A stretch of DNA of 64,000 nt from a virus, in IMG/VR virus record IMGVR_UViG_3300036828_000667, positions 1 to 64,000 of that record; one strand, 5' to 3'. The notes below the pieces were generated by a model, which was not told the DNA's origin, searched no databases, and saw only the letters and a program-made list of their open reading frames with translations. The stretch's first letter is position 1. Every line of letters starts with the position of its first letter. Shown here in pieces: positions 16,676 through 64,000 of this stretch. A program made the translations under genes and the position numbers.

Positions 16676-16760
16676 GCACACCGAACCGGAGCATACCTAC
16701 CCACGCCTTCCCGCGCCATTCCAAACCATACCCAACCTACCCTCACCACACCGCACCATA
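16676..16760 (+). ncRNA. pentamer element E1, 17 units
   Basis: (C/G)C-NNN x17; TTGACA 16640; ends CCACA CCGCA CCATA. Confidence 0.85.
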
Positions 16761-16777
16761 CTATTACCTAGTACATA

Positions 16778-20546: not shown

Positions 20547-20611
20547 ACGGACCATTCCGATCCGAAGCCAGCCCCACCGTGCCTATCCCCTCCCCAGCGA
20601 ACCGAACCACA
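20547..20611 (+). ncRNA. pentamer element E2, 12-13 units
   Basis: TTGACA 20508; CC-NNN register; ends CCGAA CCACA. Confidence 0.82.
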
Positions 20612-20846
20612 CACACTTTATCACGATCACACACTATCCTGGGGCACGTCTCTAACTCTAGTCCAAGAATCACTACTCTTGGTATAGAACCAAACGCTAG
20701 CGTCGTCACACAAAGCGACTATCGGATTAACTTCGGACCCCTGTGAAACCTGGACAACTTTTCTAGTCTTACCAGGAGGATTAGGTTGCTGAGGTGCCAT
20801 GTTCATCCAACCTTCTATCCATACGCGTGTCATCATGACCTTGTCC

Positions 20847-40176: not shown

Positions 40177-40258
40177 GACCGTCTATCCCATCCGAACCAG
40201 TCCAATCCTATCCTATGCACACCGCACAGAATGACCTAAGAGAAATCTTAGGTCATTC
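40177..40258 (+). ncRNA. pentamer element E5 (8-10 units) with GAAA-loop hairpin
   Basis: TTGACT 40148; GCACA CCGCA; 13-bp stem 40229-40258. Confidence 0.85.
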
Positions 40259-40682: not shown

Positions 40683-40729
40683 ATCCCCCTCCACTTGACT
40701 CACAAAGATTATTTGGCTACTATCCAAAC

Positions 40730-40811
40730 GCGAGCCAAACCGGTCCACTCCACGCCCCTCCTTCGCTTACCGATCCACACAGAATGGCCTGAGAGAAATC
40801 TTGGGCCATTC
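40730..40811 (+). ncRNA. pentamer element E6 (10 units) with GAAA-loop hairpin
   Basis: TTGACT 40695-N17-TACTAT; stem 40782-40811 with two G-U pairs. Confidence 0.85.
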
Positions 40812-45674: not shown

Positions 45675-45962
45675 ATGACGATGATAATAGAGCTTCCTGT
45701 CACGATCGTTTGGGACTGGGAAGGCAACCGTTCCCTCGGTAAACATCGCAGGCTACGTCGGACATTCACAGTACGCATGAGCACCCAGGATGATGCTGGA
45801 CCACTAACTTATTGCACCGAATACCCACCTAGAGAGAATTCAAGATGGCAAGTCGACCATGGTGTACTATCGACATTGCTAAGCAATGAAGCTAATAGTG
45901 AAATATGCATGCGTGCGGTAGATGATCCAGAAGGCTATGAACCACAGTATCTAAAGGAGTAG
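45675..45962 (+). CDS. hypothetical protein
   Basis: ATG after GGGAGA. Confidence 0.55.
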   Translation: MTMIIELPVTIVWDWEGNRSLGKHRRLRRTFTVRMSTQDDAGPLTYCTEYPPRENSRWQVDHGVLSTLLSNEANSEICMRAVDDPEGYEPQYLKE

Positions 45963-46367
45963 TCAATGGGAACACGTAAGTCACCTAGTCGATTTGATGT
46001 GGATCTGTCAAAGTTGGACGAGGACGAACCTTTTTTTATACTCAGGGGCAATGACGAGTTGGCCGCAGAACTCGTTAGGGATGAATCACGATAAAGTTCT
46101 CGCGGCCTATCAATGTGCCGAAGACATGAGGAGGTGGAACAAGAGAAAGACACCAGACTAAACCTATTAATTTTTGGAGGGGAGAATGATTACTAGGAAA
46201 GAAGTGATTAAAAGACTACAGGATCAATTACAGTGGAGGTCCCACACCGGGAGATTGATGGGGCAAGTAATGGTACCAAGAGAGCATGCTGAGTTTATAA
46301 TAGAAAACTTGATCCATCTGACAGAGCTACATCCCAACGAGAAAACATTCTAAAATGGAGAGAACCA

Positions 46368-46877
46368 ATGCAAGCTACCTTCCACCAGTTCATCGATAAA
46401 ATCAGAGTCGAAACACTCCGAACGTTCAACGAAAATGGAAGTATACACCCAACATGGTTTTTACAAGAAGAGGATGGCCAGATCCTACTTGTGGCCACAC
46501 CATATACAGATGATCTGACAAAAGACATGGTAGACTTCGCCATTAGAGAAGCCATCAGAATTAAGCATATCCAACGCTACGCGTATATTTCAGAAGTTTG
46601 GATGGCATTTCAAAAAGATTTGACTTCACTAGAAGACTACAAGGGACTAAGACCAAGCCAAAGACCTGATCGGAAAGAAGCATTGATGTTTATAGCAGAA
46701 GACATTTCAGGAGACTATATAATGTCGTACTCTGATATCTACAGAGACTCCAAAACTGACCTTGCTATGATTGCTGAGATCAAGATAGACGGAAAAGAGG
46801 TAGACCCAGATACTCTTAAAGGACGTTTTGTAAAAATGTTCAAAGGAAGGAAGAAGCCCTCAGGCTCGCCACACTAG
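46368..46877 (+). CDS. conserved phage protein
   Basis: SEVWM..RPSQRPDRKEAL motif. Confidence 0.7.
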   Translation: MQATFHQFIDKIRVETLRTFNENGSIHPTWFLQEEDGQILLVATPYTDDLTKDMVDFAIREAIRIKHIQRYAYISEVWMAFQKDLTSLEDYKGLRPSQRPDRKEALMFIAEDISGDYIMSYSDIYRDSKTDLAMIAEIKIDGKEVDPDTLKGRFVKMFKGRKKPSGSPH

Positions 46878-47188
46878 CTAGATCAGCGCTAGAAGGTTAC
46901 TGCCGAGAGCTATAGTGAAAAGGCTTCACCTAATCTTCGTCCTCACAGGTTTCAGGAGTACATAGGTAGCACTCTGTCCGTCGGTGGTGAATAAACCAGC
47001 ACCTTCCGCAGTACCACTTACCGTCGTCCCCCTTCATGGGTTGAGGCTTCTCGCAGTCCCGCGGACAGTGGTAGTGATCAGCTTTCATACTCACCGCTCC
47101 GCAGAGTTCGTCTTTGACCATAATTTAGGACAGCTTTCTCCGAAGAGGACCATCCTTCCTTACCCCATATCTCCATTAAGTACAAAAG

Positions 47189-47268
47189 TATGGTGCGGTG
47201 TGCAGCGGTTAGGCATGGGATGGGCGGGCTGGCGACGGCGAGGCACGGGTTGCATTGGTGTGGGTTGG
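47189..47268 (-). ncRNA. pentamer element E10, 16 units
   Basis: follows hairpin 47281-47317; ends GCACA CCGCA CCATA CTTTT. Confidence 0.85.
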
Positions 47269-47325
47269 TAGGATAGAGGACAAAGGACCAGAAGATTAGA
47301 TATCCTCTGATCCTTTGAACAGATG

Positions 47326-47390
47326 TGCGGTTTGGTATGCTGTGGGCCGGCACGGCTGGGGGTGGCGCGGGAAGGCTTGGCATGGCTTGC
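47326..47390 (-). ncRNA. pentamer element E11, 13 units
   Basis: TTGACT(-) 47421-47426 N17 TAGTCT. Confidence 0.88.
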
Positions 47391-47433
47391 ACCAAAAAGA
47401 CTACTACCAAACTTACCGCTAGTCAACCACTAT

Positions 47434-47847
47434 TTACCTGATACGCTGCACTAAGCAACCTTCCGATTTTGCCTGCCACGTCCCACACCACTGGCCAGCT
47501 TCAACAGGTCGCAAGATCCACTTTCGTGAATATTCCCAGATCGGAACGACCTTTTTTTCCATGACCTTCTGGCCGTTCTCGTCTAAGACGAGTTTGTTCT
47601 TTTCACCCCGCTTAGACCGTGAGATTTCCTGTGTCCCGACTTGCGTGGCAAATTTCATTTTGACCGCGGACACAGCTGAACCCAAAGTTTTCATGGGATC
47701 GGGCATCTTCTCGGTCTTAGCTGCGAAGAAGCTCTGTCCGACGCCCAATTTATCAAGAGGATATTTGGCGACCCCATTACGGTTACCACGTTTCGACTTC
47801 GGCATTTCCACCGCGTCGATGATTTCAAACGTCACTTGCTCTTCCAT
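47434..47847 (-). CDS. putative DNA-binding phage protein (contains E10 and E11 matches)
   Basis: KYPLDKLGVGQSFF motif. Confidence 0.75.
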   Translation of the reverse strand: MEEQVTFEIIDAVEMPKSKRGNRNGVAKYPLDKLGVGQSFFAAKTEKMPDPMKTLGSAVSAVKMKFATQVGTQEISRSKRGEKNKLVLDENGQKVMEKKVVPIWEYSRKWILRPVEAGQWCGTWQAKSEGCLVQRIR

Positions 47848-48227
47848 TCTGTTCTCCGTCTTTTGTGAGACGGCTCTTGACCGTCCTCTGTCACCATTTT
47901 ATCTCGTCACGATCCCATTGGGACCGATTACACTCTACAAAAATAGGGTGCTCCATAGCCCTTGTCAATAGCCTAGACACTACAGGCCATTGGCTACAAA
48001 GTGCCTTGGCAGGCGTGATCTAGGCCTACTCATATCTTAAAAGCCACTAGACCAGAACATTTTAATTCCACTGGGGAGAGCCGCATTGGCCTTTTTTCCG
48101 ATGGCCCAGGCCAAGGCTCCCATGCTGCACTGCACAAAACGATTTCGAATCAACCTGCCGTCTTGACCCCCGGACCACACGGTCTACACTACCCCAAGTC
48201 GTTCCCTCTCGCAGATCGGTTGAAAAA

Positions 48228-48479
48228 ATGACGAACAACCGGAATGACTTCGTTGACCGTGTCATGCGCATGACTTGTGGTGAAATAGAGGACTATGCCA
48301 GCCAACATAACATGACTCTAGAAAGTTTCTTGGATATGGTTTGCGACTGTATAGTAGACATGATGGACCAAGAGGTTTCAGAGCTAGCTGATAAATACGG
48401 TATTGACTCCACTAAAATGGCAGATAGCATCAAAAATATCATAGAAAAGTACCTAGCTCATAGCAGCACTAAACACTAG
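48228..48479 (+). CDS. hypothetical protein
   Basis: upstream TTGACC..TACACT. Confidence 0.55.
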   Translation: MTNNRNDFVDRVMRMTCGEIEDYASQHNMTLESFLDMVCDCIVDMMDQEVSELADKYGIDSTKMADSIKNIIEKYLAHSSTKH

Positions 48480-48622
48480 TCCACCTCGACCGGTTTCACA
48501 TTTCTTAACAATGTCGAGTTCCATACACAAAACAGTTGATTGTAACAAGGGGCAAGTCTAAGATCAGAAAACTGCCTGTACAGTATAAAATCTGAATCAC
48601 CTAAATAAAGAGGGCCACAAAG

Positions 48623-49387
48623 ATGTCGGACCTTGCCCCAAAGCCAGCCGTTTATCCTCAACGAGAACCCATGGAAGACGAAATATCGGGGATTGGACTT
48701 ATCCTCGATGAAGCGATTACTTTCAAGAAGGTCCAGGATGACTTGGTAAGACTTCTGTCATCAGAATGCCCAGACGCAGGCATCTGTGCTATTCTGGACA
48801 TTTCCCAGGAACTTCTCGACAAGTTCAAGGTCAAGGTCAAAAGGAAGATCCGAAAGGTCAACGTCGACTTGGGGCTCTCCGTTAGCTCCGAGAGCAACGA
48901 AAGATCATTCTGGGAATTCGTAAAAGAGACAACTGGGGATATAGACTTACTGGGATGGCCCAGCTACTATAGTTGTATGGGCTGTGTAAGGAAAGAAGCG
49001 AACTCGATAGTCCACTCAGTAGACAAATCATTCCATCGGACCAGGGAAAGCCATGCTGGTGGAAGAGGCATCTTTTTCCAACACCCAGACCTGATCACTC
49101 TGTTAAGACTGAACTTCAGAAGAAAATACCATAGCGATATAGTCAAGTATGTAATAGACAATCAACTGAACGTATTCAAGATAACATGTAAGGAAGTTGA
49201 TAGAACCACCTTATTACCACCAGATCGGGTAAAAGGTGAACCTGTATTGATCAGAAGGATTAGGTTTATTCAGGTACAGGTTTTAGAAAACCTTTTCAGT
49301 GTTATAGTCGAAGCTCGTATGCATGCCAACCAAGTCGAACGGGATAGGCTATTGGAGATCACACCTGAAAACGTGTTTATCCTATAG
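48623..49387 (+). CDS. hypothetical protein
   Basis: 254 aa. Confidence 0.65.
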   Translation: MSDLAPKPAVYPQREPMEDEISGIGLILDEAITFKKVQDDLVRLLSSECPDAGICAILDISQELLDKFKVKVKRKIRKVNVDLGLSVSSESNERSFWEFVKETTGDIDLLGWPSYYSCMGCVRKEANSIVHSVDKSFHRTRESHAGGRGIFFQHPDLITLLRLNFRRKYHSDIVKYVIDNQLNVFKITCKEVDRTTLLPPDRVKGEPVLIRRIRFIQVQVLENLFSVIVEARMHANQVERDRLLEITPENVFIL

Positions 49388-49433
49388 TTTATGCCGACTG
49401 ATATCCCTAAAGGATTGATGTCGGTTCGGAAGG

Positions 49434-49805
49434 TTGGACTTGCGCCTAGGATGGAGAATACCCAGGAGGATTGGCAAGATCCTTGGTTACCTGGAAGGGT
49501 TCAAATCCCTACATCCCTTGCCCTTAAGAAAGTTCAACCTTCCACCAAAAATAGGGGAAAGACCTTTGAAGAAAGAAAAGAAGGAGAAGGAGAACAAGGC
49601 ATATACTATAGCCGACGAACTATCCAATTGGCTAACTAAAAACAAAGTAGATATAGGTGATGCTATCGATGCCATGGCTAGGTTAATAGGATTGGCTGTA
49701 GGTGTCAGCGTAGACTATGAGGAAATAGAAACCATACTACAGAATATCTACAAGGAAAGTCTCAAAGCGGCGTACTTTTCGTATAAAAAGAATCAAGCTA
49801 ACTAG
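49434..49805 (+). CDS. hypothetical protein (start probably internal; contains E12 match)
   Basis: helical C-terminal half looks coding. Confidence 0.6.
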   Translation: MDLRLGWRIPRRIGKILGYLEGFKSLHPLPLRKFNLPPKIGERPLKKEKKEKENKAYTIADELSNWLTKNKVDIGDAIDAMARLIGLAVGVSVDYEEIETILQNIYKESLKAAYFSYKKNQAN

Positions 49806-49913
49806 ACCAGTATAACAATGGGAGGCTACAATGAAAAAAAGTGTAAGTGGGGCTGGTGACTTACCACCAGCCCCTTTGGACTACGCTGTCTCTTATTCTC
49901 AGGGACTAAATTG

Positions 49914-49978
49914 TGCGGTTTGGCCTGCAGCGGAGCGGATAGGCTAGGTTCGGATAGGCAAGGAAAGGCGTGGTATGA
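49914..49978 (-). ncRNA. pentamer element E12, 12-13 units
   Basis: TTGACA(-) 50011-50016; ends CCAAA CCGCA. Confidence 0.85.
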
Positions 49979-50027
49979 ACAATCACTCCCTTAGCCTAGC
50001 TCACAAAAGCTGTCAAGGTTCTTTTCG

Positions 50028-50552
50028 ATGTACTTACCACCTTGGGTGAAGGTCGACATGATTGCACTGAAAAATAGAAAACGGTTATCACAGTTGGTCA
50101 GGATGCTAAGTTCTGGCCATCAAGGTGAAGCAATGGCAGCCAGAGACGCTGTTCAAAAAATCTGTTCTTTTAACGATCTAGCAGATTTGATCGAGAGTGG
50201 TAGTGATTTTAAAAAAGCAGAATTGCAGTTCGTGTACGACTCAGGACATGAGGATGGATTCAAAAAAGGTTTTGAAAAAGGGCTTCAAGAAGGAAAACTC
50301 GGTAGTAATAGCTCACGTCCTCCTCCCAGTTCTCATAAGAAGGGCGACATTTTCTTCGACATTGGCGATAAACCTGACATAATTAAAGAAAAGATACAAT
50401 TTTGTCAAAAGCATAAAGATAGACTCAGAAAAGATAGGGAAAAAGAATTCATCGCCAATATAGTTAATTGGACCACGGTTTTAAATAGACCTCTAACTCC
50501 AGGTCAAGAGAACTGGCTAAACGATATATACGCCAGACTAGGGGGTAAATAA
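50028..50552 (+). CDS. conserved phage hypothetical protein
   Basis: RMLSS.H.GE..AA; REKEFI; LTPGQENWL.DIY. Confidence 0.7.
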   Translation: MYLPPWVKVDMIALKNRKRLSQLVRMLSSGHQGEAMAARDAVQKICSFNDLADLIESGSDFKKAELQFVYDSGHEDGFKKGFEKGLQEGKLGSNSSRPPPSSHKKGDIFFDIGDKPDIIKEKIQFCQKHKDRLRKDREKEFIANIVNWTTVLNRPLTPGQENWLNDIYARLGGK

Positions 50553-50735
50553 TATGAAAACAATTACTACAAATGACGCACTTGATCTCACTCGTAAAAG
50601 AGCCTACGAGCTAATAGAAGAACACACACTTTCAATACCTTACAGTGAGCTTATACCCACAGAACAACTAGTAAGTCGTGTACTCATGGAACTAGTAGCT
50701 AAGTACTTAAAACAGGAACTGGGGAGGACTCCTAA

Positions 50736-51068
50736 ATGAAGCTAGAGAAAGTCATATCAGAAGCCGTCGAGAACATCCTTACCAATAACTTCGAAATTAT
50801 TGATAAGCAAATAGTCAGACTTGTAGAGAACGAAGTGATGAAGGCCCTAGAACAACTTCTTAAGGATAGGATAAGAACTAAGGTAATAGAGATCATCGAA
50901 GAACATAGCCAAAGGATCATTGAGAGGTCCCAAGAAATACTTCTAGTATACGAAGGTGGGGATTCTGATCTCAAAGAGGTAAATAACGTAGCCGAAAAAC
51001 ATCTAGACCAAGTTGAGGCTGATATGAGAAATAAAGTACAAAGAAAAAAGGGAACTACAGAGGAGTGA
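50736..51068 (+). CDS. coiled-coil hypothetical protein
   Basis: GGAGG RBS. Confidence 0.6.
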   Translation: MKLEKVISEAVENILTNNFEIIDKQIVRLVENEVMKALEQLLKDRIRTKVIEIIEEHSQRIIERSQEILLVYEGGDSDLKEVNNVAEKHLDQVEADMRNKVQRKKGTTEE

Positions 51069-51397
51069 CCCATGCCTATGGGACCTGACGACCATCTGGT
51101 TGAAACAATCAAGAACGTCCTCTGGAAAGATGAAGAATTACTGGATAGGGCTATTCATAAGATAATAGAAAAGAGAATACATTTCATACTAGAACAGCAC
51201 ATAAACAATGGTTTGTCATCTAGACATATTTCAGAAGTTCTAGATGAATACATAACTTACCATATCAAAAGAATTCTCAGTTCGACTTTGGAACTGGAGG
51301 GAAAGGAGTAGTGGTTCACGATTTGGTCTTTTTGCCATTATTTAAACAGTAGGGAGGTCTAGATGTTGGCCGGCCCCTTTGGTAGAGTAGAGGCGAT

Positions 51398-51871
51398 ATG
51401 ACTATTTACACTATCTACCATGTTCCTAATATAAAAGTAGGAGCAACCGATAATTTAAAAACTAGAATGGCTAGATACAAGTCTAGATACAAGGAGGTTG
51501 AGATAGAAATACTCTTGAAAATGAGATTCGAACAAGTACCAGAATATGCAAGATGGTATATAGTAGGAACTTATGAATGGATATTTGCTGATATGTATGG
51601 ATACCCTAGAGGTTTTCATTACTATATCAGCAGATATAGTAATAGAGTAAAACAAAGTCCATATAGCACTTTAGAACAAATTAAGTCTAATTACGGGAAA
51701 CAACATGCAAATGATTACTTTAATCAAATTACTGTAACAAACGAAACACTATGGAAATTCCTATCGTTGCTTTTAAATCAACAAAGTTACATAGAGAGAC
51801 TTGTCAAAGAGATATTCCCAAATTCTTCTCCTCAATCCTTTCCTCTGGCACTCTTTCTCTTCACCAGCTAG
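51398..51871 (+). CDS. GIY-YIG-like protein
   Basis: IY....KVGAT.NL..R...Y. Confidence 0.45.
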   Translation: MTIYTIYHVPNIKVGATDNLKTRMARYKSRYKEVEIEILLKMRFEQVPEYARWYIVGTYEWIFADMYGYPRGFHYYISRYSNRVKQSPYSTLEQIKSNYGKQHANDYFNQITVTNETLWKFLSLLLNQQSYIERLVKEIFPNSSPQSFPLALFLFTS

Positions 51872-52105
51872 TTAAATCACCAGTTAGTTAAGTCAGTAAA
51901 AGACGAGGGGAGTATGAGGGGAGTTTTTCAATAGTTTGTCAATTCTACTTAGGTATAGGTTTATATCACACTATGTTACAAACTGTAAGAATGGGATATA
52001 CTTTAGACACGACAAAAAGCCCCATTAGACTATGTCTAGGGGTTTATGGTCATTTGGGGGTTGTTTTTAGGATGTAAGGAGGTGCTGTTGTGGATAGCCT
52101 CTTGG

Positions 52106-52326
52106 TTTTATCAGGCGCCTGATAAAATTCCCTGGATTACCTGCGGTGCACCACCGTAACCCAGTATGGTTAGGAGAATAGCTTCCCCCTGGAATACAGG
52201 GGCCTGCTCGTCTATTAAAGATCCACGGGCCAGACCGTCAGTCGCTGGATTTTTCTCACCGTGGTAGCAGCCATGGCAGTCGCCGTTAGGTCGGCCCCAT
52301 GGCACCGCTGTAACTCGCGGGTAAAC
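52106..52326 (-). ncRNA. candidate structured RNA, about 220 nt
   Basis: TTGACT(-) 52356-52361 N17 TATGGA; several stems; palindrome 52106-52127. Confidence 0.5.
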
Positions 52327-52382
52327 GCATCTTCCATATTAGAAAACGAACTGCTAGTCAACATCACTTGGAGATAAAATTG

Positions 52383-52437
52383 TGCGGTATGGGATGCATG
52401 GGGCAGGTCCGGCAGGGTAAGCGTCGGGGTGGGGTGG
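52383..52437 (-). ncRNA. pentamer element E13, 11 units
   Basis: TTGACA(-) 52469-52474; ends CCATA CCGCA CAATTTT. Confidence 0.83.
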
Positions 52438-52711
52438 ACAAAGCTTCATTACTATCATTGCAATCCATTGTCAAGAAGTCTAAAATCAAGCCTCCCGTCC
52501 TCCCCTGGCTGGAGCATAGGATGAAAAAAGGCCCATATCGCAGAAGAACCCTTGTCAGAAAATACAGGTTTCATCCCTATGAGAATTTTGAGTCAGGTAA
52601 GGGATGGAACCTTCCCCATAACAGAAAAAGGGTAAAGAAACATCATGGTCCAGCACTAAATAAACTAGGTCAATTAAGACGTTTTTGGATTACTGTTACA
52701 AGAACATACAG

Positions 52712-53077
52712 ATGAAAGACCTTACCTATCTCGACAAATACAGAATGCCTATCCCTGAGGTCTGCCTTGTAGGAAGTGGTACAGTCGACCTAAAGTTCAA
52801 CGGAGCCTTTGCATTTGCCATAAAAGGTGTTAGTGTTGTGGTAATAGCAGGACGCGGTAAGGGATGGGATCACGTATCAGTCTCTTGTGAAAACAGAACT
52901 CCAACTTGGGAAGAAATGGAAACGGTCAAGAGGATGTTCTTCAAAGACGATGAAGTAGCCATGCAATTGCATGTAGCTGTTGAGGATCACATCAATATGC
53001 ACCCTTATTGTCTTCATTTATGGCGCAGTTACAATAAGCTTAGGCCAATTCCACTTCCACCAAAAGGATTCGTGTAA
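52712..53077 (+). CDS. conserved phage protein
   Basis: GWDHVSVS..RTPTWEEM..VK..FF..QLH..HPYCLHLW. Confidence 0.8.
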   Translation: MKDLTYLDKYRMPIPEVCLVGSGTVDLKFNGAFAFAIKGVSVVVIAGRGKGWDHVSVSCENRTPTWEEMETVKRMFFKDDEVAMQLHVAVEDHINMHPYCLHLWRSYNKLRPIPLPPKGFV

Positions 53078-53343
53078 TGAAACGAGCAGATTTCGTTAGA
53101 GCCTACGCAAATCGTTCTGGACTATCAGATAAGTGGGCAAACATAGGGTTGATAGATAGACATGATGGCTGGGTATTTGTAGCTCTGCCTTGTGTATGTG
53201 GTGAAGATGGTTGTCAGGGATGGGCCATGCTCTCAGCTGAGCAAGTCTTACACCACTTACAATTCAATGCTCCTGATGGGCTACGTGAAGCCTATATGAA
53301 ATCTGTTGAAGACGAGGAAGCAAAGACATAGGCATGAATTGAT

Positions 53344-53613
53344 ATGAAGTATAGGCATTACAAACTACCGCAAAGAGGATATAGACACGACTGGAATGAA
53401 GCCAGAAGAATTCACGTATTTCTTCTAAGATGTGAAGGATTGTCATATGGAGAAATTGCATTACGTCTTGGTGTAACCAGACAAGCAGCTAGAGAAATGT
53501 ATCGTAGAGCAGCCCATATGTTAATGTGGGCATGGCGACATATACTACAACCTCATACAATGATAGACCCAGAGTGTAGACTAGAGGCAGAGGAACATGA
53601 GAGCGACGAATAA
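53344..53613 (+). CDS. sigma70 region-4-like HTH protein
   Basis: LR.EGLSYGEIALRLGVTRQAAR. Confidence 0.7.
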   Translation: MKYRHYKLPQRGYRHDWNEARRIHVFLLRCEGLSYGEIALRLGVTRQAAREMYRRAAHMLMWAWRHILQPHTMIDPECRLEAEEHESDE

Positions 53614-54206
53614 CCGTGACTTCCACCCAGTACCGATTTTAGGTGGAGATCACTGTCCGAAGTGTGGTAACATCATGCAAAGGTACACTCATAACCCAAA
53701 GTGGAAGCCTCTCCCTGGCCGTGGCTTCTACAAACACTGGGATCGGTGCATAGACTGTCGGCGATATTACAATCCAGCTGATGCCTATGTTAAAGGAAGT
53801 AAAGATGAGTGATGATTGTAAAAAGCGTCAACTTGCAATGCTCATGATTGATGAAATAGAAAAATCATTGGCACGTGGCACTAAACATTACAACAAGAGT
53901 GGGAAGTTGCTAAAGACACCTAAGGCTGTCTTAGAATGCTTACTTAAAGACGGAAGTGTTGAACTCAAGTATAGGAAAGAGAAGGATGAATAGTGTAGTC
54001 AAATTACTGATAGAAATAGCTGGGGAGGTTGGAAGTGCTGTTGTGTTTGTAGCTGGTCTAAGAGCCTTAGCACTTTCTGTAGTTACAGAAGTAACCTCAA
54101 CTTCCCCAGAGGAACGTGGTAAGATAAATAATCTGATAATCAAAGCAATGGTGTTTATCGCAATTGCTTTTTCATTTCTCATACATACAAGACTATAGGA
54201 GTCGAA

Positions 54207-54587
54207 ATGAAGCTAGTTGGATGTGTGGTTCTCTTATCGGTAGTCTTCTCCCCAGTTGCCTATTCTGAATTTGTCCCTGGTAATGTGTTTATTGAAAGCT
54301 GTAACAACCCTAGTCCTGAACGTCAGGCAGCTTGTATAGGTTTTACGGCAGGGGTTACCGATAGCTATCTCAGGTCTGGTCAATTTTGCTTACCACCAAA
54401 TGTTACTCCAAAAGAGATTTCAGATTTCACGAAGTACTACATCAACAAAACTGTTTCAATCCGCAATCAATCAGCCCTCATGATGGTGCTGTATGCATTG
54501 AAATCACGGTGGCCGTGTGTTAATAGTGGACCACGGATGGTCTTCCAACTACCTCCCCAGTTCCAGTTTCAATTCCGTGGGTTCTAA
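54207..54587 (+). CDS. Rap1a/Tai-like secreted protein
   Basis: signal peptide; GN.F...C..C.GF..GV.D..FCLP..VT..WPC. Confidence 0.7.
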   Translation: MKLVGCVVLLSVVFSPVAYSEFVPGNVFIESCNNPSPERQAACIGFTAGVTDSYLRSGQFCLPPNVTPKEISDFTKYYINKTVSIRNQSALMMVLYALKSRWPCVNSGPRMVFQLPPQFQFQFRGF

Positions 54588-54798
54588 AGGAACAGTACGA
54601 TGATGACAAAAATCTACCTGATCGACCCGGGGGCATCAGACGGTTATCCTGGTCTTGTAAAAGAAATTGTCAGAGAGAACATCGAAGCGTTCGATATTGT
54701 CGAGTACACGAATTTATATGGAAAACATGGGTATTACGTGTTTGACGGCATGGTAAAAGATGATATCGTTTACAGACGGGTGATTCGCGTCGCTAGAA

Positions 54799-55062
54799 TT
54801 GCAGAAAAGAAGGAACAAAAGAATGGCCAAGGCGGTCAGACGACCTCCGAAGGGACACCATGATGGCAGTGGAATAAAACTTGCTGTCAAATTTACACCG
54901 AAGCTTTTTAAAAGAATAAACGAACGGGCAACCAAACATAACAAAAACTTTTCAGAAATCGTGAATGAGACTTGTGAATGTGGTCTATTATGCTTGGAAG
55001 AATCGGAGCGGGACGAGCCTAATTATAAGACAGTGGTGAGCCAACATGAAGATCGGGCCTAG
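54799..55062 (+). CDS. ribbon-helix-helix-like protein
   Basis: LAVKFTPKLFKRINERA....FSEIV. Confidence 0.5.
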   Translation: MQKRRNKRMAKAVRRPPKGHHDGSGIKLAVKFTPKLFKRINERATKHNKNFSEIVNETCECGLLCLEESERDEPNYKTVVSQHEDRA

Positions 55063-55212
55063 GTTCTAAAGCTTCCTGGACAGCCTAGGTCTGACGGTGG
55101 AGGAGTACAGGACTATACCTTAGTGCCCCCAGTACTCCTCCACTACACTATAAGGAATCCCATAGCAAATGACGAAGGGGGTTCCTAAACTGTAACACTA
55201 GGAGTAACTAAC

Positions 55213-55803
55213 ATGATGAAGCAAACCTCGTTGGCAAGGCATATAACCGTAGAGATTCCTAGTGAGAACTCAGCTGATGTTGACTTTCTTCATGAGCTAG
55301 AAGAAGCTCATGACCACGACAATTTGAAAGACGTAGGTGCTGGTGTCGAGAAAGCATTCAAGGACAGAGTTGAAAAAGAGTTCTCAGGACAAGACATTAC
55401 ACCAAAGACACGGGCGTCCATCACAGACTTCTGTATATATTTAATGTCGATTGCAAAATTTTACGGTTATGATCTTTTACTAGGTGGGTTTATTACTACT
55501 GTTCACGAAGACATGTTTTCTGTACGAACTCAACCTACCAAAGGGATTACGGCTCTCATAGAGTCAACGTTCACGTATTTTGACGATGAGGGAAACTATA
55601 AACTCACTGCCAATGGTTTCATGAGAAGGGATTGGGCAACTGCCCCAGACGATCCAGTCAGCCGACGTAATCAGATCCTGAGAGATAACAACGATATTTT
55701 TCCCGGATTGCAATACAGTAATGCCAACACCAATAAGCTCCATATTCATATAGAAATAACAGGACAGTTCCCGCTATTAATCCTCCCAGTTACCTACCAA
55801 TAA
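55213..55803 (+). CDS. hypothetical protein
   Basis: C-terminus paralogous to next ORF. Confidence 0.7.
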   Translation: MMKQTSLARHITVEIPSENSADVDFLHELEEAHDHDNLKDVGAGVEKAFKDRVEKEFSGQDITPKTRASITDFCIYLMSIAKFYGYDLLLGGFITTVHEDMFSVRTQPTKGITALIESTFTYFDDEGNYKLTANGFMRRDWATAPDDPVSRRNQILRDNNDIFPGLQYSNANTNKLHIHIEITGQFPLLILPVTYQ

Positions 55804-55837
55804 ATTATAGGGGCTGGGAAGATGGGGGGATTATTGT

Positions 55838-56098
55838 ATGTCCAATGTAATCAACTTACCTATAATGGTAAGAGCGAGATTCTCTTATTTTAATACCAAA
55901 GGTATATTTCAATTATCAGCAGACGGTCATATGAGGCAAGATTGGGCTACTCACTCCAATCTGCCACGGCCTAGACGTACCCAAATCATCCAAGACAATA
56001 AAGGAATGCCAGGAATGCCTGGAAGGGCTTCCGCGTATTTCATACATATTGTCACACAGGATAAGAAACGAACTCTCGTACTTCCGGAGACACCTTGA
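55838..56098 (+). CDS. hypothetical protein
   Basis: paralogue of preceding C-domain. Confidence 0.65.
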   Translation: MSNVINLPIMVRARFSYFNTKGIFQLSADGHMRQDWATHSNLPRPRRTQIIQDNKGMPGMPGRASAYFIHIVTQDKKRTLVLPETP

Positions 56099-56158
56099 AC
56101 AGGGAGGAAAATCAGAACTCAACATGAACAACAAGCAGAAAACCGTAATCACCTATAG

Positions 56159-56437
56159 ATGAAATACTCTAAGGATCGGAGACAAACCATGGATCACGCT
56201 GAACTTCTTGCTAACCTCAATACAGCACTAGACAACTTCGTGAACAGTAGTGATGGAACTAAGCAAGAACTGAAAGATGATCTCGAAGACTTTCGAGACG
56301 ATATAGACGGACGTATCATGGCCCTGGAAGAAGAAATCGAGGAGGAGCAAGGCGAAGATACAGATGAAGATGAAGGAGATGACGGTGAGGAAGCGCCGAT
56401 TGTAGAAACGGGAGAAATGGGAGAAGAGCCGAAGTAA
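56159..56437 (+). CDS. very acidic small protein (contains E14 match)
   Basis: D/E-rich; start probably 56189. Confidence 0.7.
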   Translation: MKYSKDRRQTMDHAELLANLNTALDNFVNSSDGTKQELKDDLEDFRDDIDGRIMALEEEIEEEQGEDTDEDEGDDGEEAPIVETGEMGEEPK

Positions 56438-56445
56438 TAGAGATT

Positions 56446-56544
56446 AAGTCATCCTCTGTTTTTGAAATGACAGAGGATGACTTGTGCGGTTTGGTTAGGA
56501 ATGCAGTGGCTCGGCAGGGTTCGCTTCGGTTTGGTATGGTTCGA
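56446..56544 (-). ncRNA. pentamer element E14 (11-12 units) with 3' hairpin
   Basis: TTGACA(-) 56576-56581 N17 TACGTC; stem 56446-56483. Confidence 0.85.
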
Positions 56545-56565
56545 ACATGCGGGACGTAGCAGAAC

Positions 56566-57183
56566 TTGACCGTCTTGTCAAATGGGTGCAAAATGTCCAA
56601 GAAGTTCTCAATATCAGTGGACCATAATGCATTAAGGCAATTTCCGTTTCTGGATCGACTCCAGAAACAACAATTCCCCATTTCAACCCTCAATGAAGTT
56701 ATGTACGTTCTTGAAAATAGACCTGAAGGATTCAAAATCGAGTTGGTTTATAGTGTATTGAAAGTGTCGTTAATTAACGTCAATAGAGACACCAATGACG
56801 ACTACTTGGGATTGCCGAAGATTGAAGGTCAGTTGAAAGACCTGTGTGATGTGATCAGAGAGACCACGTCATATGGAACACGTGGGGGAGTCGACCCAAG
56901 GACACAAATATATTATAGTAGGAAGTCGTCTATTCTACAGGGTAGTAACCTTAGTGATGATGCTCTGATAGCTCCTAATTATGTTTCTAATAGAGGTTTG
57001 AGAAAACGCCATCCTCTTGATCTTGTGTCCACAGAAGAGGTCGTTAAAAGAAGGGAACTTGCTAACCGACACTGGCAAGAACAGAAAAAAGAGCAACGAA
57101 GAAAACAACAGTCCAGTATCAACTCAAAAATCCGGAATGCTCAGGACTTTTTGACAAGAAGCAATTTTGACAAGAAGCAATAA
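56566..57183 (+). CDS. hypothetical protein (contains E15 match)
   Basis: start probably 56593. Confidence 0.7.
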   Translation: MTVLSNGCKMSKKFSISVDHNALRQFPFLDRLQKQQFPISTLNEVMYVLENRPEGFKIELVYSVLKVSLINVNRDTNDDYLGLPKIEGQLKDLCDVIRETTSYGTRGGVDPRTQIYYSRKSSILQGSNLSDDALIAPNYVSNRGLRKRHPLDLVSTEEVVKRRELANRHWQEQKKEQRRKQQSSINSKIRNAQDFLTRSNFDKKQ

Positions 57184-57201
57184 TAATGTTAACCTTCTTC
57201 G

Positions 57202-57299
57202 GCGAACCGGTCCAATCCGAACCGACCCTATCCCTACCGGACCCTTGCACAGCATACCGCACATCTACCCCTCAGGCTGTATTACACAGCCTGAGGGGT
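57202..57299 (+). ncRNA. pentamer element E15 (12 units) with 3' hairpin
   Basis: TTGACA 57167 N17 TAACCT; stem 57267-57299. Confidence 0.87.
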
Positions 57300-57321
57300 T
57301 ATTATTATTAGGAGGTTAGAG

Positions 57322-57918
57322 ATGGTGACCAAAGAAATGGTAGATGAGTTCTGTAAGCATCTGATTGATGAAGGAAAGATCGTAGAAGCTGGGTGGCTAG
57401 GCTTTAAAATCATGGTGCTTGAACCTGTTGATCTCTCGGAGAATCAAGTCGAAGATATGAAAATGGCATTCTTTGGTGGTGCTTATCATCTGTTCACGTC
57501 GATGACAAGGATGTTAGACCCTGGCAAAGAGCCGTCAGACAATGACATAAAGCGTATAGATCAAATCAATACAGAGCTTGAAGCATTCGTAGGAGTGTTT
57601 GAAGAAGAGCTAAGGAAACGTCAACAGAAACCACCTATATCAGAAGATCCAGCACCAACTCTAGGTGATGCGCCTATCGAACAAGAGTATCGTAGTAAAA
57701 TGCAAGCTGTTGCCATGACCTTAGATAAATTCTTCAATGGCGAGCTTGAAGGAAACGACAGACACACCGGATTTGTCCTACTAGTATTCCCCTTTGAAGA
57801 AAGGGAAGGACGGTGTAACTTCATTTCAAATGGTGCTGATCGAGAGGATGTAGTCACACTTTTCAAAGAAATGATCCAAAAATTTTCTGGCCAACCAGAT
57901 ATAGTTGGACATGCTTAA
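57322..57918 (+). CDS. two-domain conserved phage protein
   Basis: AFFGGA..LF domain plus GFVLLVFPF..CNFISN domain. Confidence 0.75.
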   Translation: MVTKEMVDEFCKHLIDEGKIVEAGWLGFKIMVLEPVDLSENQVEDMKMAFFGGAYHLFTSMTRMLDPGKEPSDNDIKRIDQINTELEAFVGVFEEELRKRQQKPPISEDPAPTLGDAPIEQEYRSKMQAVAMTLDKFFNGELEGNDRHTGFVLLVFPFEEREGRCNFISNGADREDVVTLFKEMIQKFSGQPDIVGHA

Positions 57919-57929
57919 GGAGGTTAACA

Positions 57930-58568
57930 ATGACCAAAAAGGGACCGCCTAACGTTTTTTGTCTACTATGCAATGAAGGATTTGGAAACAATGTTCATCT
58001 AGGTCGTCACGTACTGCAAATGCATGGAATTAACTTTGCCGATTATGATTGGTACAAAGTACAGAATAACATCGAACCACCTTGCTGTGCCAATTGTCAA
58101 GGTCCAGCAAAGATACACTCAGGTCGATATATAAAATTTTGCAGCACTGAGTGTAGTAGCGCCGGCCATATGATTTCTGACGAAGCTAGAGAAAGAGTTG
58201 CGAAGAGTGCGAAGCTAGTAGGTCTAGCAAATCGTACACATGGCGAAAGTAGTAAAGATAATCTGACACCTGAATATAGAGCGTATCACAGTATGCTCTC
58301 ACGATGCTTGAACTCAGCTGACGCACGCTATCCTAATTATGGCGGGAGAGGCATCAAAATCTGTGACCGTTGGCTTGGTGAAAATGGCTTCCGCCATTTT
58401 CTTGAAGATATGGGACGTAGACCGTCTAGCGACTTATCTCTTGATCGCTATCCCAACAATAATGGAAATTATGAGCCAAACAACTGCCGTTGGGCAACAC
58501 GTAGCCAGCAACAGCGTAATAAGAGTCGTGTAAAATCACTAGACAATCCTCCCGATATACTACCATGA
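57930..58568 (+). CDS. HNH endonuclease with N-terminal zinc fingers
   Basis: C2H2, YGGRGIKICDRW, SLDR..NNGNYEPNNCRWAT. Confidence 0.87.
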   Translation: MTKKGPPNVFCLLCNEGFGNNVHLGRHVLQMHGINFADYDWYKVQNNIEPPCCANCQGPAKIHSGRYIKFCSTECSSAGHMISDEARERVAKSAKLVGLANRTHGESSKDNLTPEYRAYHSMLSRCLNSADARYPNYGGRGIKICDRWLGENGFRHFLEDMGRRPSSDLSLDRYPNNNGNYEPNNCRWATRSQQQRNKSRVKSLDNPPDILP

Positions 58569-59140
58569 AATCAAAAACAATAAAACTTATCAGGAACCGT
58601 AACGTCCCCTTACCTGGGGACGTATATATTAAGAGGCTTGCTGTGTATCGTGTCGTCATGTACGATGAGACTAACGATACTACACTATTCGCTACCACTA
58701 ACGATATCATTACTATCTATGGTCAAATACCACGGTTGGAGATAAGAAAAAACGACTTTTACCCTTGTCCCTACCAGCTACTAGGTCCTGCCATTCAGGT
58801 ATTCGAACTAGATGAAAAATACAGTGAAAAGAGTCTAGTAAACCTACAAGACTATCGCTTACAGCATGTCAAAACATATGAGAGGATCGGCCTACCTGAA
58901 TTGTTTGAAGACATTGAAGACGCAAGGACTAGAGTTTACACAGTGCCAGACGAGCAAGGAGAACAATTTCCTGGACTGAAAGGAAAGTCGTTCCAGGTAT
59001 TGGTACCTTTCATGTGCATCTCAAAAGGGACATATAAAGAACGTTATCAGACACTTGACTTGCCAGCTGATAAGGGGTATTTCAAAGCAATGAGATATAC
59101 GGCATGGCCAATCTTCTACGTCCCCAGTAGATTTGAATAA
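58565..59140 (+). CDS. hypothetical protein
   Basis: 191 aa. Confidence 0.65.
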   Translation: MKSKTIKLIRNRNVPLPGDVYIKRLAVYRVVMYDETNDTTLFATTNDIITIYGQIPRLEIRKNDFYPCPYQLLGPAIQVFELDEKYSEKSLVNLQDYRLQHVKTYERIGLPELFEDIEDARTRVYTVPDEQGEQFPGLKGKSFQVLVPFMCISKGTYKERYQTLDLPADKGYFKAMRYTAWPIFYVPSRFE

Positions 59141-59418
59141 TCACTTGCGTCGTACCATCAGAGATGATAGGGAGCCAATCATGACATTCCTGGTGACGTG
59201 ATATGAGGTAATTATATGAGACGGTCAGATGATTTGCTGATACTTTTAATTCGAGAACACCATATACAACTATCACCAAGAACTGTGAAATCACTACTAA
59301 CTAGCATAGGTCTCTTGTCCAACAACAAATATCTAAGTGCAACTCAGGTGAAAAAGTTCAGAAAACCACGGATAAGTTCTAGTTCTAAAAAAGTAGCAGT
59401 AAAAAGAGGGAAAGTAAC

Positions 59419-59661
59419 ATGACGAAGCATGTAATGAATATTCTAGATCAAACTGGCCACACTACTATCGGATGGGATGCAGGCAACGAACAGGAAATAG
59501 CTATTGCTAAAGAAGCTTTCGATAGTGCTATAAAGAAAGGATACCATGCGTTTCACGTTATTGAAGAAAAGGGTGGAGAGACTAGACGTGGAGAACGTAT
59601 GACAAGATTTGATTCTGACGCAGAACGGATGATCCTGATGCCGCAATTACAAGGAGGTTGA
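59419..59661 (+). CDS. conserved small protein ending PQLQGG
   Basis: D.TGH....WD..A...F..FD..A...P...GG. Confidence 0.7.
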   Translation: MTKHVMNILDQTGHTTIGWDAGNEQEIAIAKEAFDSAIKKGYHAFHVIEEKGGETRRGERMTRFDSDAERMILMPQLQGG

Positions 59662-59662
59662 T

Positions 59663-60346
59663 ATGATATTTGCCGCCTATCAACGATCTATAGGCATCTC
59701 CACACCTCTCCCACAGTCTGTAATTTTTACAATGGCCGACTCTATGACAAATACCTGTAGCTCAACCTATCCAACCTATCCAGTCTGGCATAATAACATA
59801 ATAGTTTTTAACGACAGTACTCGTACATATAGTGTATATAACCCCACCACCTGTACCAACAACACGGTTGCAAGCACCTGTTTTCCTATTATACTCCAAT
59901 GGCCAGATTGGCATGATCACATTTCTATGCCAAACATTATCCAAGAAAGGATGGAGGCAGAGAACGCTAGGCTAGAACTCCAAAGACAAGCTATTGCGGA
60001 AGCTAATAGAATTGAAATGGAGAGAGCTAAGGAAAGAAGACTTAGCTCTGAGAAGGCCAAGCAGTTACTTCTAGAACACCTAACGTCTGAACAACGTGAA
60101 ACAGTTGAGAAGAATGGATGGTTTGTTATCGAAGGTGGTCGATCGAAGAAACGTTACCGGATAAGATCCAGTGGTGTTACTGGTAATGTTGAGGAGATGG
60201 ATGGAGAAAGAGTCATAGCCAAATATTGTTGTCACATATCACATAGTTATCCACGCTCGGACCATCATCTCACCCAAAAGCTCATGCTAGAATGGGATGA
60301 AGAAACCTTCTTACGACTAGCTAATAAAACTGCGATAGGCTCATAG
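59663..60346 (+). CDS. conserved phage protein
   Basis: KA..LL.EHL..EQ; C.H....P..D..L.QKL.LE.DE..FL. Confidence 0.7.
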   Translation: MIFAAYQRSIGISTPLPQSVIFTMADSMTNTCSSTYPTYPVWHNNIIVFNDSTRTYSVYNPTTCTNNTVASTCFPIILQWPDWHDHISMPNIIQERMEAENARLELQRQAIAEANRIEMERAKERRLSSEKAKQLLLEHLTSEQRETVEKNGWFVIEGGRSKKRYRIRSSGVTGNVEEMDGERVIAKYCCHISHSYPRSDHHLTQKLMLEWDEETFLRLANKTAIGS

Positions 60347-61648: not shown

Positions 61649-62176
61649 ATGGCAAAACACAATGAAGAAAATGATCTATGGTTCCTTAGCAAAATCGCAG
61701 ATGGAACCATTTCTGTATCCGAAGACGGAGAGGTCTTCAACAACAAGACAGGTAGATATATAGGCGCTCAACAAGGAGCAGGTTACCTTAAGATTTCTAT
61801 GGCAAAGAGAGTTGATGGAAAACTTGTTATTGTCCATATGCAAATCCATAGGTTAGTATGGCTACATTTCAAAGGACCTATTCCTCAGGGACTAGAAGTC
61901 AATCACAAAGATTTAAACAAATCGAACCCACGATTGTCAAATCTAGATTTACAAACACCCAAAGGGAATGCTGAACATGCCACCTTAAATGGTGTTGACC
62001 GACGCTCAAAAACAGGAGGCCATAAAAACGCTAATGCCAAATTTACACGTGAACAAGTCGAGATGCTACGGAGACAATTCAAATCGAAAGAAACCACAGT
62101 TAAAGAAATAATGATAAACTATAGTGTTTCTAAGCCAGTTGTGTATTGGATGCTGGAAGGAAGGACCTATAAATAG
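61649..62176 (+). CDS. HNH endonuclease
   Basis: IHRLVW..F.GPIP..EVNHKD.NK.N..L.NL. Confidence 0.88.
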   Translation: MAKHNEENDLWFLSKIADGTISVSEDGEVFNNKTGRYIGAQQGAGYLKISMAKRVDGKLVIVHMQIHRLVWLHFKGPIPQGLEVNHKDLNKSNPRLSNLDLQTPKGNAEHATLNGVDRRSKTGGHKNANAKFTREQVEMLRRQFKSKETTVKEIMINYSVSKPVVYWMLEGRTYK

Positions 62177-63410: not shown

Positions 63411-63514
63411 TCGAACCGCTGCCTTGCTTGCCAAACCGGGCCAAGCCGGCGCGGACCAAACCTCCGCACACCGCACAATGGGAGTAGTCAAATGGCTTGC
63501 AGACTACTCCCATT
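63411..63514 (+). ncRNA. pentamer element E17 (13 units) with 3' hairpin
   Basis: TTGACC 63369; GCACA CCGCA; stem 63477-63514. Confidence 0.88.
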
Positions 63515-63533: not shown

Positions 63534-64000
63534 ATGCTAATTTCAGTCACGATCTCCGGAATCCGACCTTTAATCCTCGACGCGTTTTCCGAGGAAGCGT
63601 TGCTTAAGGGGAAGGGAGGAAAGAGTACAGCCCAGCCCAAGGAACTGAGTCCCTTGGATCAAGCCAAGCGTAGGTTATACTATAATGGAGATGGTACCGA
63701 CGTTCCTATATTCCCAGCAGACAACCTACTCAGCTGTATCATCGCTGCCGGGCGGTTTATCAAGGTCGGGAAAAGGCAACTAACTACTCGCGACAGTACG
63801 ACAGTAACTTCATTCCTACAGATATCAGAACTATATCTTCCCATTAGGTCGATAGATGGATGGCGAGTCGACTCCAGGAGCATCGTCAACCCGTCTACAA
63901 AAGGTCGTCACATATGCTACCGTCCCATCTTTGACGACTGGGAGTTAGATTTCACGCTCGACATCGATACGAATGAAGCGAGCGACAGCTTGGTTAGACA
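63534..64000 (+). CDS. RAMP/Cas7-like protein, truncated by the window end (not in ORF track)
   Basis: AGGAG RBS; MLISVTISGIRPLIL..., PIFPADNLLSCI, D.R.IV...GRH..YRPIFDDWELDFTL.ID; no stop to 64000. Confidence 0.7.
   Translation, partial: MLISVTISGIRPLILDAFSEEALLKGKGGKSTAQPKELSPLDQAKRRLYYNGDGTDVPIFPADNLLSCIIAAGRFIKVGKRQLTTRDSTTVTSFLQISELYLPIRSIDGWRVDSRSIVNPSTKGRHICYRPIFDDWELDFTLDIDTNEASDSLVR

What the first reader, a model, noticed from the sequence alone, without database searches (positions are those of the whole stretch)
56788..57299. E15 decodes to EGNEDYLGL versus adjacent DTNDDYLGL, both Leu codons switched CTN to TTG
Match to 56788-56814. As in E6 and E17, position-1 mismatches are synonymous Leu swaps, a recurring signature compatible with self-protection.
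Basis: partly seen in the sequence, partly recalled or inferred. Interest (0 to 1): 0.7.

Follow-up and report, generated by a model that had tools for sequence, protein, structure and literature searches.

The report
Phage VIPR guide RNA gene (E15)
E15 is a guide-RNA gene of a recently described phage RNA-guided DNA-recognition system (VIPR); its punctuated code fits the neighbouring gene as it occurs in related phages better than the phage's own copy, which suggests allele-level rivalry between related phages.

Summary
At 57199-57263 the + strand is a run of NNNCC pentamers. Its triplets read EGNEDYLGL, against DTNDDYLGL at 56788-56814 in the adjacent gene, and both Leu codons are CTN in E15 and TTG in the gene.

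This is the VIPR code (bioRxiv 10.64898/2026.04.26.720920): a small RAMP protein plus guide RNAs of GG-punctuated pentamers that read target DNA codon by codon.

- The 113.8-kb phage record holds at least 29 such units.
- It has a 213-aa Cas7/Csm3-fold gene at 63534-64175, followed by a 10-unit array.
- Most singleton units sit beside a gene that they nearly match.

E15 matches the homologous site of orthologues in related metagenomic phages at 18/18, 17/18 and 17/18 discriminating bases. It matches the resident copy at only 14/18, so E15 probably aims at rival alleles and spares its own.

Pooled over eight unit-gene pairs, two measures do exceed a random-codon null:
- block switches: 8/10, p about 0.03;
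- codon dissimilarity: 16 identical codons against 27.7 expected, p about 0.0006.

First readers of overlapping windows of this same genome had already noted the system. None of those notes had been followed up.

The parts
57199..57248 (-). E15 guide tract: 10 pentamers (GGNNN on the - strand, NNNCC on the + strand). Nine of them (57204-57248) carry the code GA. GG. AA. GA. GA. TA. CT. GG. CT.
57249..57266 (-). Conserved head shared by all units of this genome (on the - strand, AGATGTGCGGTATGCTGT). Inferred to be the 5' handle and transcription start region of the guide RNA.
   Evidence: The strand of the RNA is inferred by analogy with the published YNNGG RNAs; it was not measured.
57267..57309 (+). 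A 14-bp hairpin plus a T-rich tail. This is an intrinsic-terminator-like site for the mRNA of gene 56593-57183. It lies directly upstream of the E15 head on the - strand.
56788..56814 (+). Resident near-match of E15 (DTNDDYLGL). It matches 14/18 discriminating bases. The mismatches are GG to AC (Gly to Thr) and two CT to TT (Leu block switches).
56593..57183 (+). Neighbouring gene, a 196-aa conserved hypothetical phage protein. Seventeen homologues were found. Most carry EGN[ED]DYLGL at the E15 site, and the resident Thr is unique among them.
56483..56547 (+). E14, the unit on the other side of the gene. Its best local match (14/18, p 0.048) is in frame in the upstream acidic-protein gene at 56267-56293.
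63534..64000 (+). vipr candidate (213 aa). It runs beyond the window to 64175 of the record. It is a Cas7/Csm3-fold RAMP with a conserved Gly-rich loop.
63426..63475 (-). E17, the unit upstream of vipr. It decodes to EALLKGKGGKST, the resident Vipr residues. All 3 units with a mismatch in the first two bases are synonymous Leu/Leu/Ser block switches.
16676..16770 (-). Singleton unit beside gene 16778-17578. Its code fits orthologue alleles (TDGMYTFAIKIQYST) better than the resident PGGLYTFAVKIQYST.
47324..47398 (+). Singleton unit beside the DUF7303 gene 47434-47847 (-). It matches 21/22 first-two-base positions of the resident site. Eight of the 10 aligned third bases differ.
20547..20616 (-). 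Singleton unit upstream of gene 20220-20492. It matches 17/20 discriminating bases of the resident site.
40177..40231 (-). Singleton unit downstream of gene 40264-40476 (YHESNYYT against the resident YHENNYYS).
40725..40784 (-). Singleton unit upstream of gene 40473-40748 (EKGTTPFLD against the resident TKGETPFLD).

Best explanation
E15 is a gene for a VIPR guide RNA (vrRNA). It is most likely transcribed from the - strand as 5'-GUGCGGUAU...(GGNNN)n.

Inferred mechanism, by analogy with the published system: copies of the phage's small Cas7-like Vipr protein (63534-64175) coat the RNA, hold the constant GG of each pentamer, and present the variable bases. These variable bases pair with consecutive codons of double-stranded target DNA. 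This silences the target gene.

Shown here: the code of E15 specifies [D/E]-G-[N/K]-[D/E]-[D/E]-Y-L(CTN)-G-L(CTN). That is the sequence of the neighbouring gene as found in related phages. The resident copy differs at 4 of the 18 discriminating bases: a Gly-to-Thr codon and two Leu CTN-to-TTG switches.

Inferred function: E15 represses that gene in co-infecting or competing relatives while sparing its own genome. Guide and spared allele sit side by side and so are inherited together. This clade uses NNNGG units rather than GGY/NN, and its third variable base also carries target information.
For: System identity:
- At least 29 units of 8-26 GG-punctuated pentamers share a common head. They occur as singletons and as a 10-unit array directly behind a 213-aa gene.
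- That gene folds as a Cas7/Csm3-type RAMP: pLDDT 83, Foldseek probability 1.0, E about 1e-6 to type III-A Csm and type VII chains.
- It has 95 homologues of about 190-200 aa with an invariant Gly-rich loop.
- 79 viral contigs encode homologues and 49 of them show flanking GG-pentamer units.
- The preprint describes exactly this kind of system, including the one-base (wobble) skip and alternative NNNGG repeats.

E15 target:
- Orthologue DNA matches 18/18 (L003), 17/18 (L004) and 17/18 (L002) at the homologous site, against 14/18 for the resident copy.
- Most protein orthologues read EGNEDYLGL or EGNDDYLGL; the resident Thr is unique.
- A second unit (16676) likewise fits orthologue alleles better than the resident one.

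Third base:
- Its purine/pyrimidine class agrees with the resident wobble base in 37/41 split codon boxes but only 14/30 four-fold boxes (Fisher p 1e-4).
- TA units are 17 TAY against 4 TAR.

Avoidance of the resident codons:
- 16 identical codons against 27.7 expected (p 0.0006).
- 8/10 block switches against 4.6 expected (p 0.03).
Against: - Nothing was measured on RNA. The transcribed strand, RNA ends, Vipr binding and mismatch tolerance are all unmeasured.
- No conserved 3' tail like that of the published type II vrRNAs was seen. The conserved part lies at the other end of the tract.
- No vap accessory gene was recognised.
- Four resident sites match their unit at 85% or more of the first two bases (47324 95%, 63426 90%, 64188 89%, 20547 85%; 16676 reaches 80%). 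By the preprint's 80% criterion these count as self-hits, so sparing by mismatch is not obviously general unless the third base is read.
- For E15 alone the Leu switches are no more frequent than background.
- The best DNA-level orthologue (L003) shares only 3/9 third bases with E15.
- Exact-pattern scans of viral contigs found no target.
Confidence: 0.68

Rival explanations
1. Self-regulation. E15 and the other singleton units guide Vipr to the phage's own neighbouring genes despite a few mismatches. This would give timed or feedback repression. For example, E17 and the first array unit would repress vipr itself.
For: Several units match their resident neighbour at 85-95% of the first two bases, above the preprint's 80% hit criterion. 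Two units flank vipr and decode to resident-specific Vipr residues. Units lie within 60-400 nt of their sites.
Against: E15 and unit 16676 fit foreign alleles better than the resident ones. Resident codons are significantly more unlike the unit triplets than chance allows, which is the opposite of what a self-directed guide needs. The preprint found no self-hits in the systems it analysed.
Confidence: 0.17
2. Relic guide. E15 is a decaying or orphan unit, and its similarity to the neighbouring gene only reflects how such units arise. It has no present function.
For: The resident match is marginal on its own (p 0.014 to 0.105). Three of E15's 12 pentamers have GC instead of GG. No exact target was found in viral contigs.
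Against: A perfect 18/18 match exists in a related metagenomic phage. The head is intact and like that of the other units. Stop triplets are avoided across units.
Confidence: 0.1
3. Not a guide at all. E15 would be a C-rich 3'-UTR, REP-like or terminator-associated repeat, or a stretch translated by an unusual five-base reading, and the peptide resemblance would be coincidental.
For: E15 lies between a stop codon and a terminator-like hairpin. No Rfam family matches it.
Against: The codon-phased matches of many units to neighbouring genes lie far above shuffle nulls. An adjacent Cas7-fold gene with an array is present. The published code explains the pattern without any new translation mechanism.
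Confidence: 0.03

Closest known systems
VIPR systems (Vipr RAMP + vrRNA), type II of Escherichia phage SUSP1 and a Pseudomonas fulva prophage; bioRxiv 10.64898/2026.04.26.720920
   Same: A small stand-alone RAMP protein is flanked by non-CRISPR arrays of 9-16 pentamer repeats with constant GG. The variable bases specify a gapped, codon-phased DNA target. The targets are genes of competing phages, and some guides are aimed at vipr genes. The system is phage-encoded.
   Different: - Here the unit is NNNGG: the third base is a pyrimidine in only 59% of units, against roughly 80-90% in distant homologous loci. It still tracks the wobble class of the target.
- The conserved part is a head at the start of the tract on the GG strand, not a 3' tail.
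- The units lie on the strand opposite to vipr.
- At least 16 singletons are scattered over more than 50 kb, most beside a near-match in the resident gene.
- Several resident sites exceed the preprint's 80% criterion, whereas the preprint reports no self-hits.
- No vap gene was recognised.
Class 1 CRISPR crRNA on a Cas7 backbone (e.g. Csm3 of type III-A)
   Same: The protein fold is the same (Foldseek probability 1.0). The guide RNA is periodically interrupted, with protein-held bases excluded from pairing. This last point is my own knowledge, and the preprint also states it.
   Different: The guide period is 5 nt per 3 nt of target, rather than 6 to 6. No repeat-spacer array, cas1/cas2 or large subunit was seen in the window. 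Each unit appears to be its own small gene.
Free-standing homing endonuclease genes with a resistant resident allele (intronless homing in T-even phages; own knowledge, not tested here)
   Same: A selfish or competitive element lies next to the gene it attacks in relatives. The resident copy is protected by sequence differences that keep the protein intact.
   Different: Recognition here is RNA-guided, and by analogy probably repressive rather than cleaving. No nuclease is linked to the units. The HNH genes in the region (61649-62176 and record 66253-66807) show no demonstrated connection to them.

Membership tests
VIPR system | Small (about 20 kDa) stand-alone RAMP protein (RRM core, Gly-rich loop, thumb), not in a cas operon | tested here: met
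   The 213-aa ORF at 63534-64175 was modelled with AlphaFold2 (pLDDT 83, pTM 0.76). The best PDB matches are Csm3/Cas7 chains, with E about 1e-6 and probability 1.0. Its 39-sequence alignment has an invariant Gly-rich loop, G.G..MRP.RK...G. Pfam and NCBIfam give no hit. The thumb was not examined separately.
VIPR system | vipr flanked by intergenic tandem pentamer repeats (9-16 YNNGG units, or the alternative NNNGG units) | tested here: met
   There is one unit upstream (63426-63475) and about 10 downstream (record 64188-65414), and 29 in the whole record. GG occupies 307 and GC 67 of 393 units. The third base is T 43%, A 21%, G 20% and C 16%, which is the NNNGG type. The preprint names NNNGG as an alternative.
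VIPR system | Variable bases specify a target with a one-base skip that falls on the codon wobble position | tested here: met
   E15 matches L003 at 18/18 of the first two codon bases, in frame at the homologous site. Nine further units match neighbouring genes in frame. Mismatches fall mainly on the third triplet position.
VIPR system | Invariable structured 3' tail after the repeat tract | tested here: not met
   The 3' flanks of the units on the GG strand are not conserved. The conserved motif (A/T)GTGCGGTNT precedes the tract instead. Distant homologous loci do show conserved 3' tails. This feature defines the characterised type II, not necessarily all seven types.
VIPR system | vrRNAs are expressed as roughly 100-nt RNAs and co-purify with Vipr | not testable with these tools
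   This needs small-RNA sequencing and a pull-down. Only consensus promoter and terminator scans were possible.
VIPR system | Accessory vap gene next to vipr | tested here: inconclusive
   The neighbouring ORFs have no Pfam hit apart from HNH/AP2 homing-endonuclease-like genes. Two small Cys-rich ORFs follow the array (L001:2438-2997), and their function is unassigned.
VIPR system | No self-targeting (no own-contig hit at 80% or more NN match) | tested here: not met
   By the first-two-base rule, resident sites reach 95% (unit 47324), 90% (63426), 89% (64188), 85% (20547) and 80% (16676). E15 itself stays below the threshold at 70-78%. If the third base is also counted, all resident sites fall to about 62-73%.
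CRISPR-Cas | Array of identical direct repeats separated by unique spacers, plus cas genes | tested here: not met
   No such array appears in the repeat and tandem-repeat scans of the window. No Rfam CRISPR repeat family matches. The only RAMP is the stand-alone gene.

The most novel reading that the evidence does not exclude
In this NNNGG clade all three variable bases are read, so a guide can tell apart two alleles that encode the same peptide. The phage carries many guide-plus-recoded-allele cassettes scattered through its genome. Each guide silences the unrecoded allele of its neighbouring gene in closely related rivals. The resident copy is immunised by synonymous recoding at wobble bases and at Leu/Ser/Arg block switches. 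Tight linkage would make each cassette a poison-antidote unit that spreads by recombination during co-infection. If so, this would be allele-level, genome-wide interference between near-identical phages. It would also reverse the published idea that wobble skipping exists to defeat synonymous escape.
Probability: 0.3. Interest if true: 0.8.

Novelty: new variant of a known kind. Interest (0 to 1): 0.58.

Why it matters
- It places an odd intergenic element in a system that was described only in a 2026 preprint.
- It shows how to annotate such elements: a GG-punctuated 5-nt period, with triplets that decode to nearby peptides.
- This genome adds three things that the parts of the preprint I read do not report: guides scattered across the genome beside the resident version of their target, resident sites that nearly match their guides, and a third variable base that carries codon information.
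- If the guide-plus-spared-allele pairing is real, it gives a natural series of matched and mismatched targets for measuring VIPR mismatch tolerance.
- It would also be evidence that related phages fight each other gene by gene.

Tried and rejected
Ideas considered before the literature search, and dropped once the preprint explained the code:
- a TRAP-like ring protein binding site;
- two-tier G-quadruplexes;
- a Rho loading site;
- translation by five-base steps;
- a synthetic watermark.

Searches that found nothing:
- megablast of 40000-60000 against phage records;
- Rfam at gathering threshold over the whole window;
- exact wobble-free patterns for E15, unit 16676, unit 47324 and the first array unit in viral contigs.

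Other negative or limited results:
- All 29 guides were scanned against about 1 Mb of fetched loci. Only E15 to L003 and the first array unit to the vipr of L007 stood out, so the targets of the other array units remain unknown.
- 130 units in 79 homologous loci showed no near-self match above shuffles. The neighbour-match pattern therefore could not be generalised beyond this genome.
The DNA of the closest protein orthologues (P0002, P0003, P0005, which read EGNEDYLGL) could not be fetched.
- The single metagenome scan returned only three loci.
- No sigma-70-like promoter was called for the array units.

Full report
**What is there.**

Between the stop codon of gene 56593-57183 and a 14-bp terminator-like hairpin (57267-57299), the + strand is a run of pentamers NNNCC, some of them NNNGC, that ends in ...ACAGC ATACC GCACA. 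The triplets of nine units read GAA GGT AAT GAA GAC TAT CTA GGA CTT, which is EGNEDYLGL. The adjacent gene has GAC ACC AAT GAC GAC TAC TTG GGA TTG (DTNDDYLGL) at 56788-56814, in frame.

**E15 is one of many.**

A scan for a 5-nt GG/CC period finds 16 such units in the window and 29 in the whole 113,838-bp virus record, of which the window is bases 1-64000.

- On the GG strand each unit starts with a shared head, (A/T)GTGCGGTNT, followed by 8-26 GGNNN pentamers.
- Ten units form an array directly behind a 213-aa gene at 63534-64175, and one more lies upstream of it.
- I concatenated the triplets and translated them. For nine units the best match in the whole record lay within 400 nt of the unit, far above triplet-order shuffles. 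Examples are KMKFATQVG, LKGKGGKST and PERKRQYG, each an exact match.
- The matches are at amino-acid level. Mismatches concentrate on the third triplet base (for example 12 of 16 and 9 of 12).

**What it is.**

A literature search found a 2026 preprint (10.64898/2026.04.26.720920) that describes VIPR systems. According to it:

- A small stand-alone RAMP protein (Vipr) binds guide RNAs made of 9-16 GGY/NN pentamers.
- The NN dinucleotides pair with double-stranded DNA, skipping one target base per unit. That base is usually the codon wobble position.
- Natural targets are competing phages and satellites, and sometimes other VIPR systems.
- Alternative NNNGG repeats exist.
- No guide hit its own contig at 80% or more NN match.

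I tested membership here.

- The 213-aa protein has no Pfam or NCBIfam hit. Its AlphaFold2 model (pLDDT 83) matches Csm3/Cas7 chains with Foldseek probability 1.0.
- It has 95 homologues with an invariant Gly-rich loop.
- 79 viral contigs encode homologues and 49 of them show flanking GG-pentamer units.
- Distant homologous loci have canonical GGY units with a conserved 3' tail. This phage and its closest relatives (L006, L007, L081) have a variable third base and no such tail.

E15 is therefore a vrRNA gene of an NNNGG-type VIPR system.

**What E15 is aimed at.**

The neighbouring protein has 17 homologues in metagenomes. Most read EGNEDYLGL or EGNDDYLGL at the site, and the resident Thr is unique.

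DNA of three orthologues could be fetched. Counting the first two bases of each codon, E15 matches as follows:

| Site | Match |
|---|---|
| L003 | 18/18 |
| L004 | 17/18 |
| L002 | 17/18 |
| Resident copy | 14/18 |

The resident mismatches are GG to AC (Gly to Thr) and the two Leu block switches.

A second singleton, 16676, behaves the same way. Its code, T-[D/E]-G-[M/I]-Y-T-F-A-I-K-I-Q-Y-S-T, is the allele of P0123 and, in part, of P0113. The resident gene has P-G-G-L-Y-T-F-A-V-K-I-Q-Y-S-T.

The simplest reading is that singleton guides target rival alleles of the gene they sit next to.

**Is the Leu switch a signature of self-protection?**

For E15 taken alone, no. Between the resident gene and its orthologues, conserved Leu/Ser/Arg positions are block-switched at 38-51% outside the window. 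The 2/2, 1/2 and 2/2 seen inside the window are therefore unremarkable (Fisher p 0.24-0.63).

Pooling eight unit-neighbour pairs gives a different picture:

- 8 of 10 conserved six-fold residues are switched, against 4.6 expected from codon usage (p about 0.03).
- Only 16 of 71-74 identical residues use the same codon, against about 27 expected (p 0.003 with genome-wide usage, 0.0006 with gene-specific usage).

The resident windows are thus more unlike their guides than chance predicts. This fits selected recoding. It rests on few sites and on hand-anchored alignments.

**The third base.**

In this clade the base next to GG is a pyrimidine in only 59% of units.

- Where the first two bases match, its purine/pyrimidine class agrees with the resident wobble base in 37/41 split codon boxes but only 14/30 four-fold boxes (p 1e-4).
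- Over all units, TA is followed by Y 17 times and by R 4 times, so stop triplets are avoided.

The third base is therefore target-derived and possibly read. If it is, resident sites that look like self-hits by the two-base rule (up to 95%) fall to about 62-73% identity. This would reconcile this genome with the preprint's finding of no self-hits. It is an inference: the one perfect two-base target (L003) shares only 3/9 third bases with E15.

**What remains open.**

- No RNA data exist for this phage. The transcribed strand is inferred from the published YNNGG polarity.
- No vap gene was recognised.
- The targets of the array units are unknown.
- Self-regulation of the neighbouring genes by near-matching guides is a live rival, especially for the two units that flank vipr.

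**Verdict.**

It is explained by a known, very recently described kind of system. This genome is a distinct variant of it: NNNGG units, a conserved head rather than a tail, and many dispersed singletons beside near-matching resident genes. The self-protection reading is plausible and weakly supported in the pooled data, but it is not shown for E15 itself.

Noticed in passing
window 57149-57181: There is a perfect 16-nt tandem duplication (TTTTGACAAGAAGCAA, two copies) at the very 3' end of gene 56593-57183, just before E15.
   Followed up: no
record 64955-65146 (L001:1950-2150), outside the window: A 66-aa ORF inside the guide array is a paralogue of the C-terminal third of Vipr, including the Gly-rich loop (48% identity).
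   Followed up: partly
window 49912-49986 and 49766-49795: This unit's near-match (15/20, p 0.043) lies on the template strand of gene 49434-49805. Its skipped base still falls on that gene's wobble position. The other nine neighbour matches with a known gene are all complementary to the coding strand, which suggests a possible strand bias.
   Followed up: partly
window 56593-57299: The mRNA of the neighbouring gene should run through the complement of E15 before reaching the terminator hairpin. The guide and the 3' UTR would then be perfectly complementary convergent transcripts.
   Followed up: no
record 65365-65414, outside the window: This array unit decodes to QMIMIGAPGT, which looks like the start of a Walker A (P-loop) motif. 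Its target may be an ATPase gene of another element.
   Followed up: no
window 61649-62176; L001:3254-3808 (record 66253-66807): HNH (HNH_3) homing-endonuclease-like genes lie on both sides of the vipr/array region. The second also carries an AP2 domain.
   Followed up: partly
window 25783-28815 and 28831-31884: Two adjacent genes of about 1010 aa are diverged duplicates, with 73-84% DNA identity in blocks.
   Followed up: no
window 21105-25025: A 1306-aa ORF contains 117-nt and 63-nt tandem repeats, giving a repetitive structural protein.
   Followed up: no
window 40177-40240, 40725-40795, 57249-57299: In three singletons a short hairpin lies 4-8 nt upstream of the conserved head on the GG strand. 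Array units instead carry an AT-rich GATAAAGTATGG motif at that position.
   Followed up: no
L032, L034, L035 (viral contigs): In these distant VIPR loci the unit upstream of vipr decodes to RQMVGMTPLIWK, against the Vipr N-terminus VHITGVTPLICN 47 nt away (75% of discriminating bases). This echoes E17 here.
   Followed up: no
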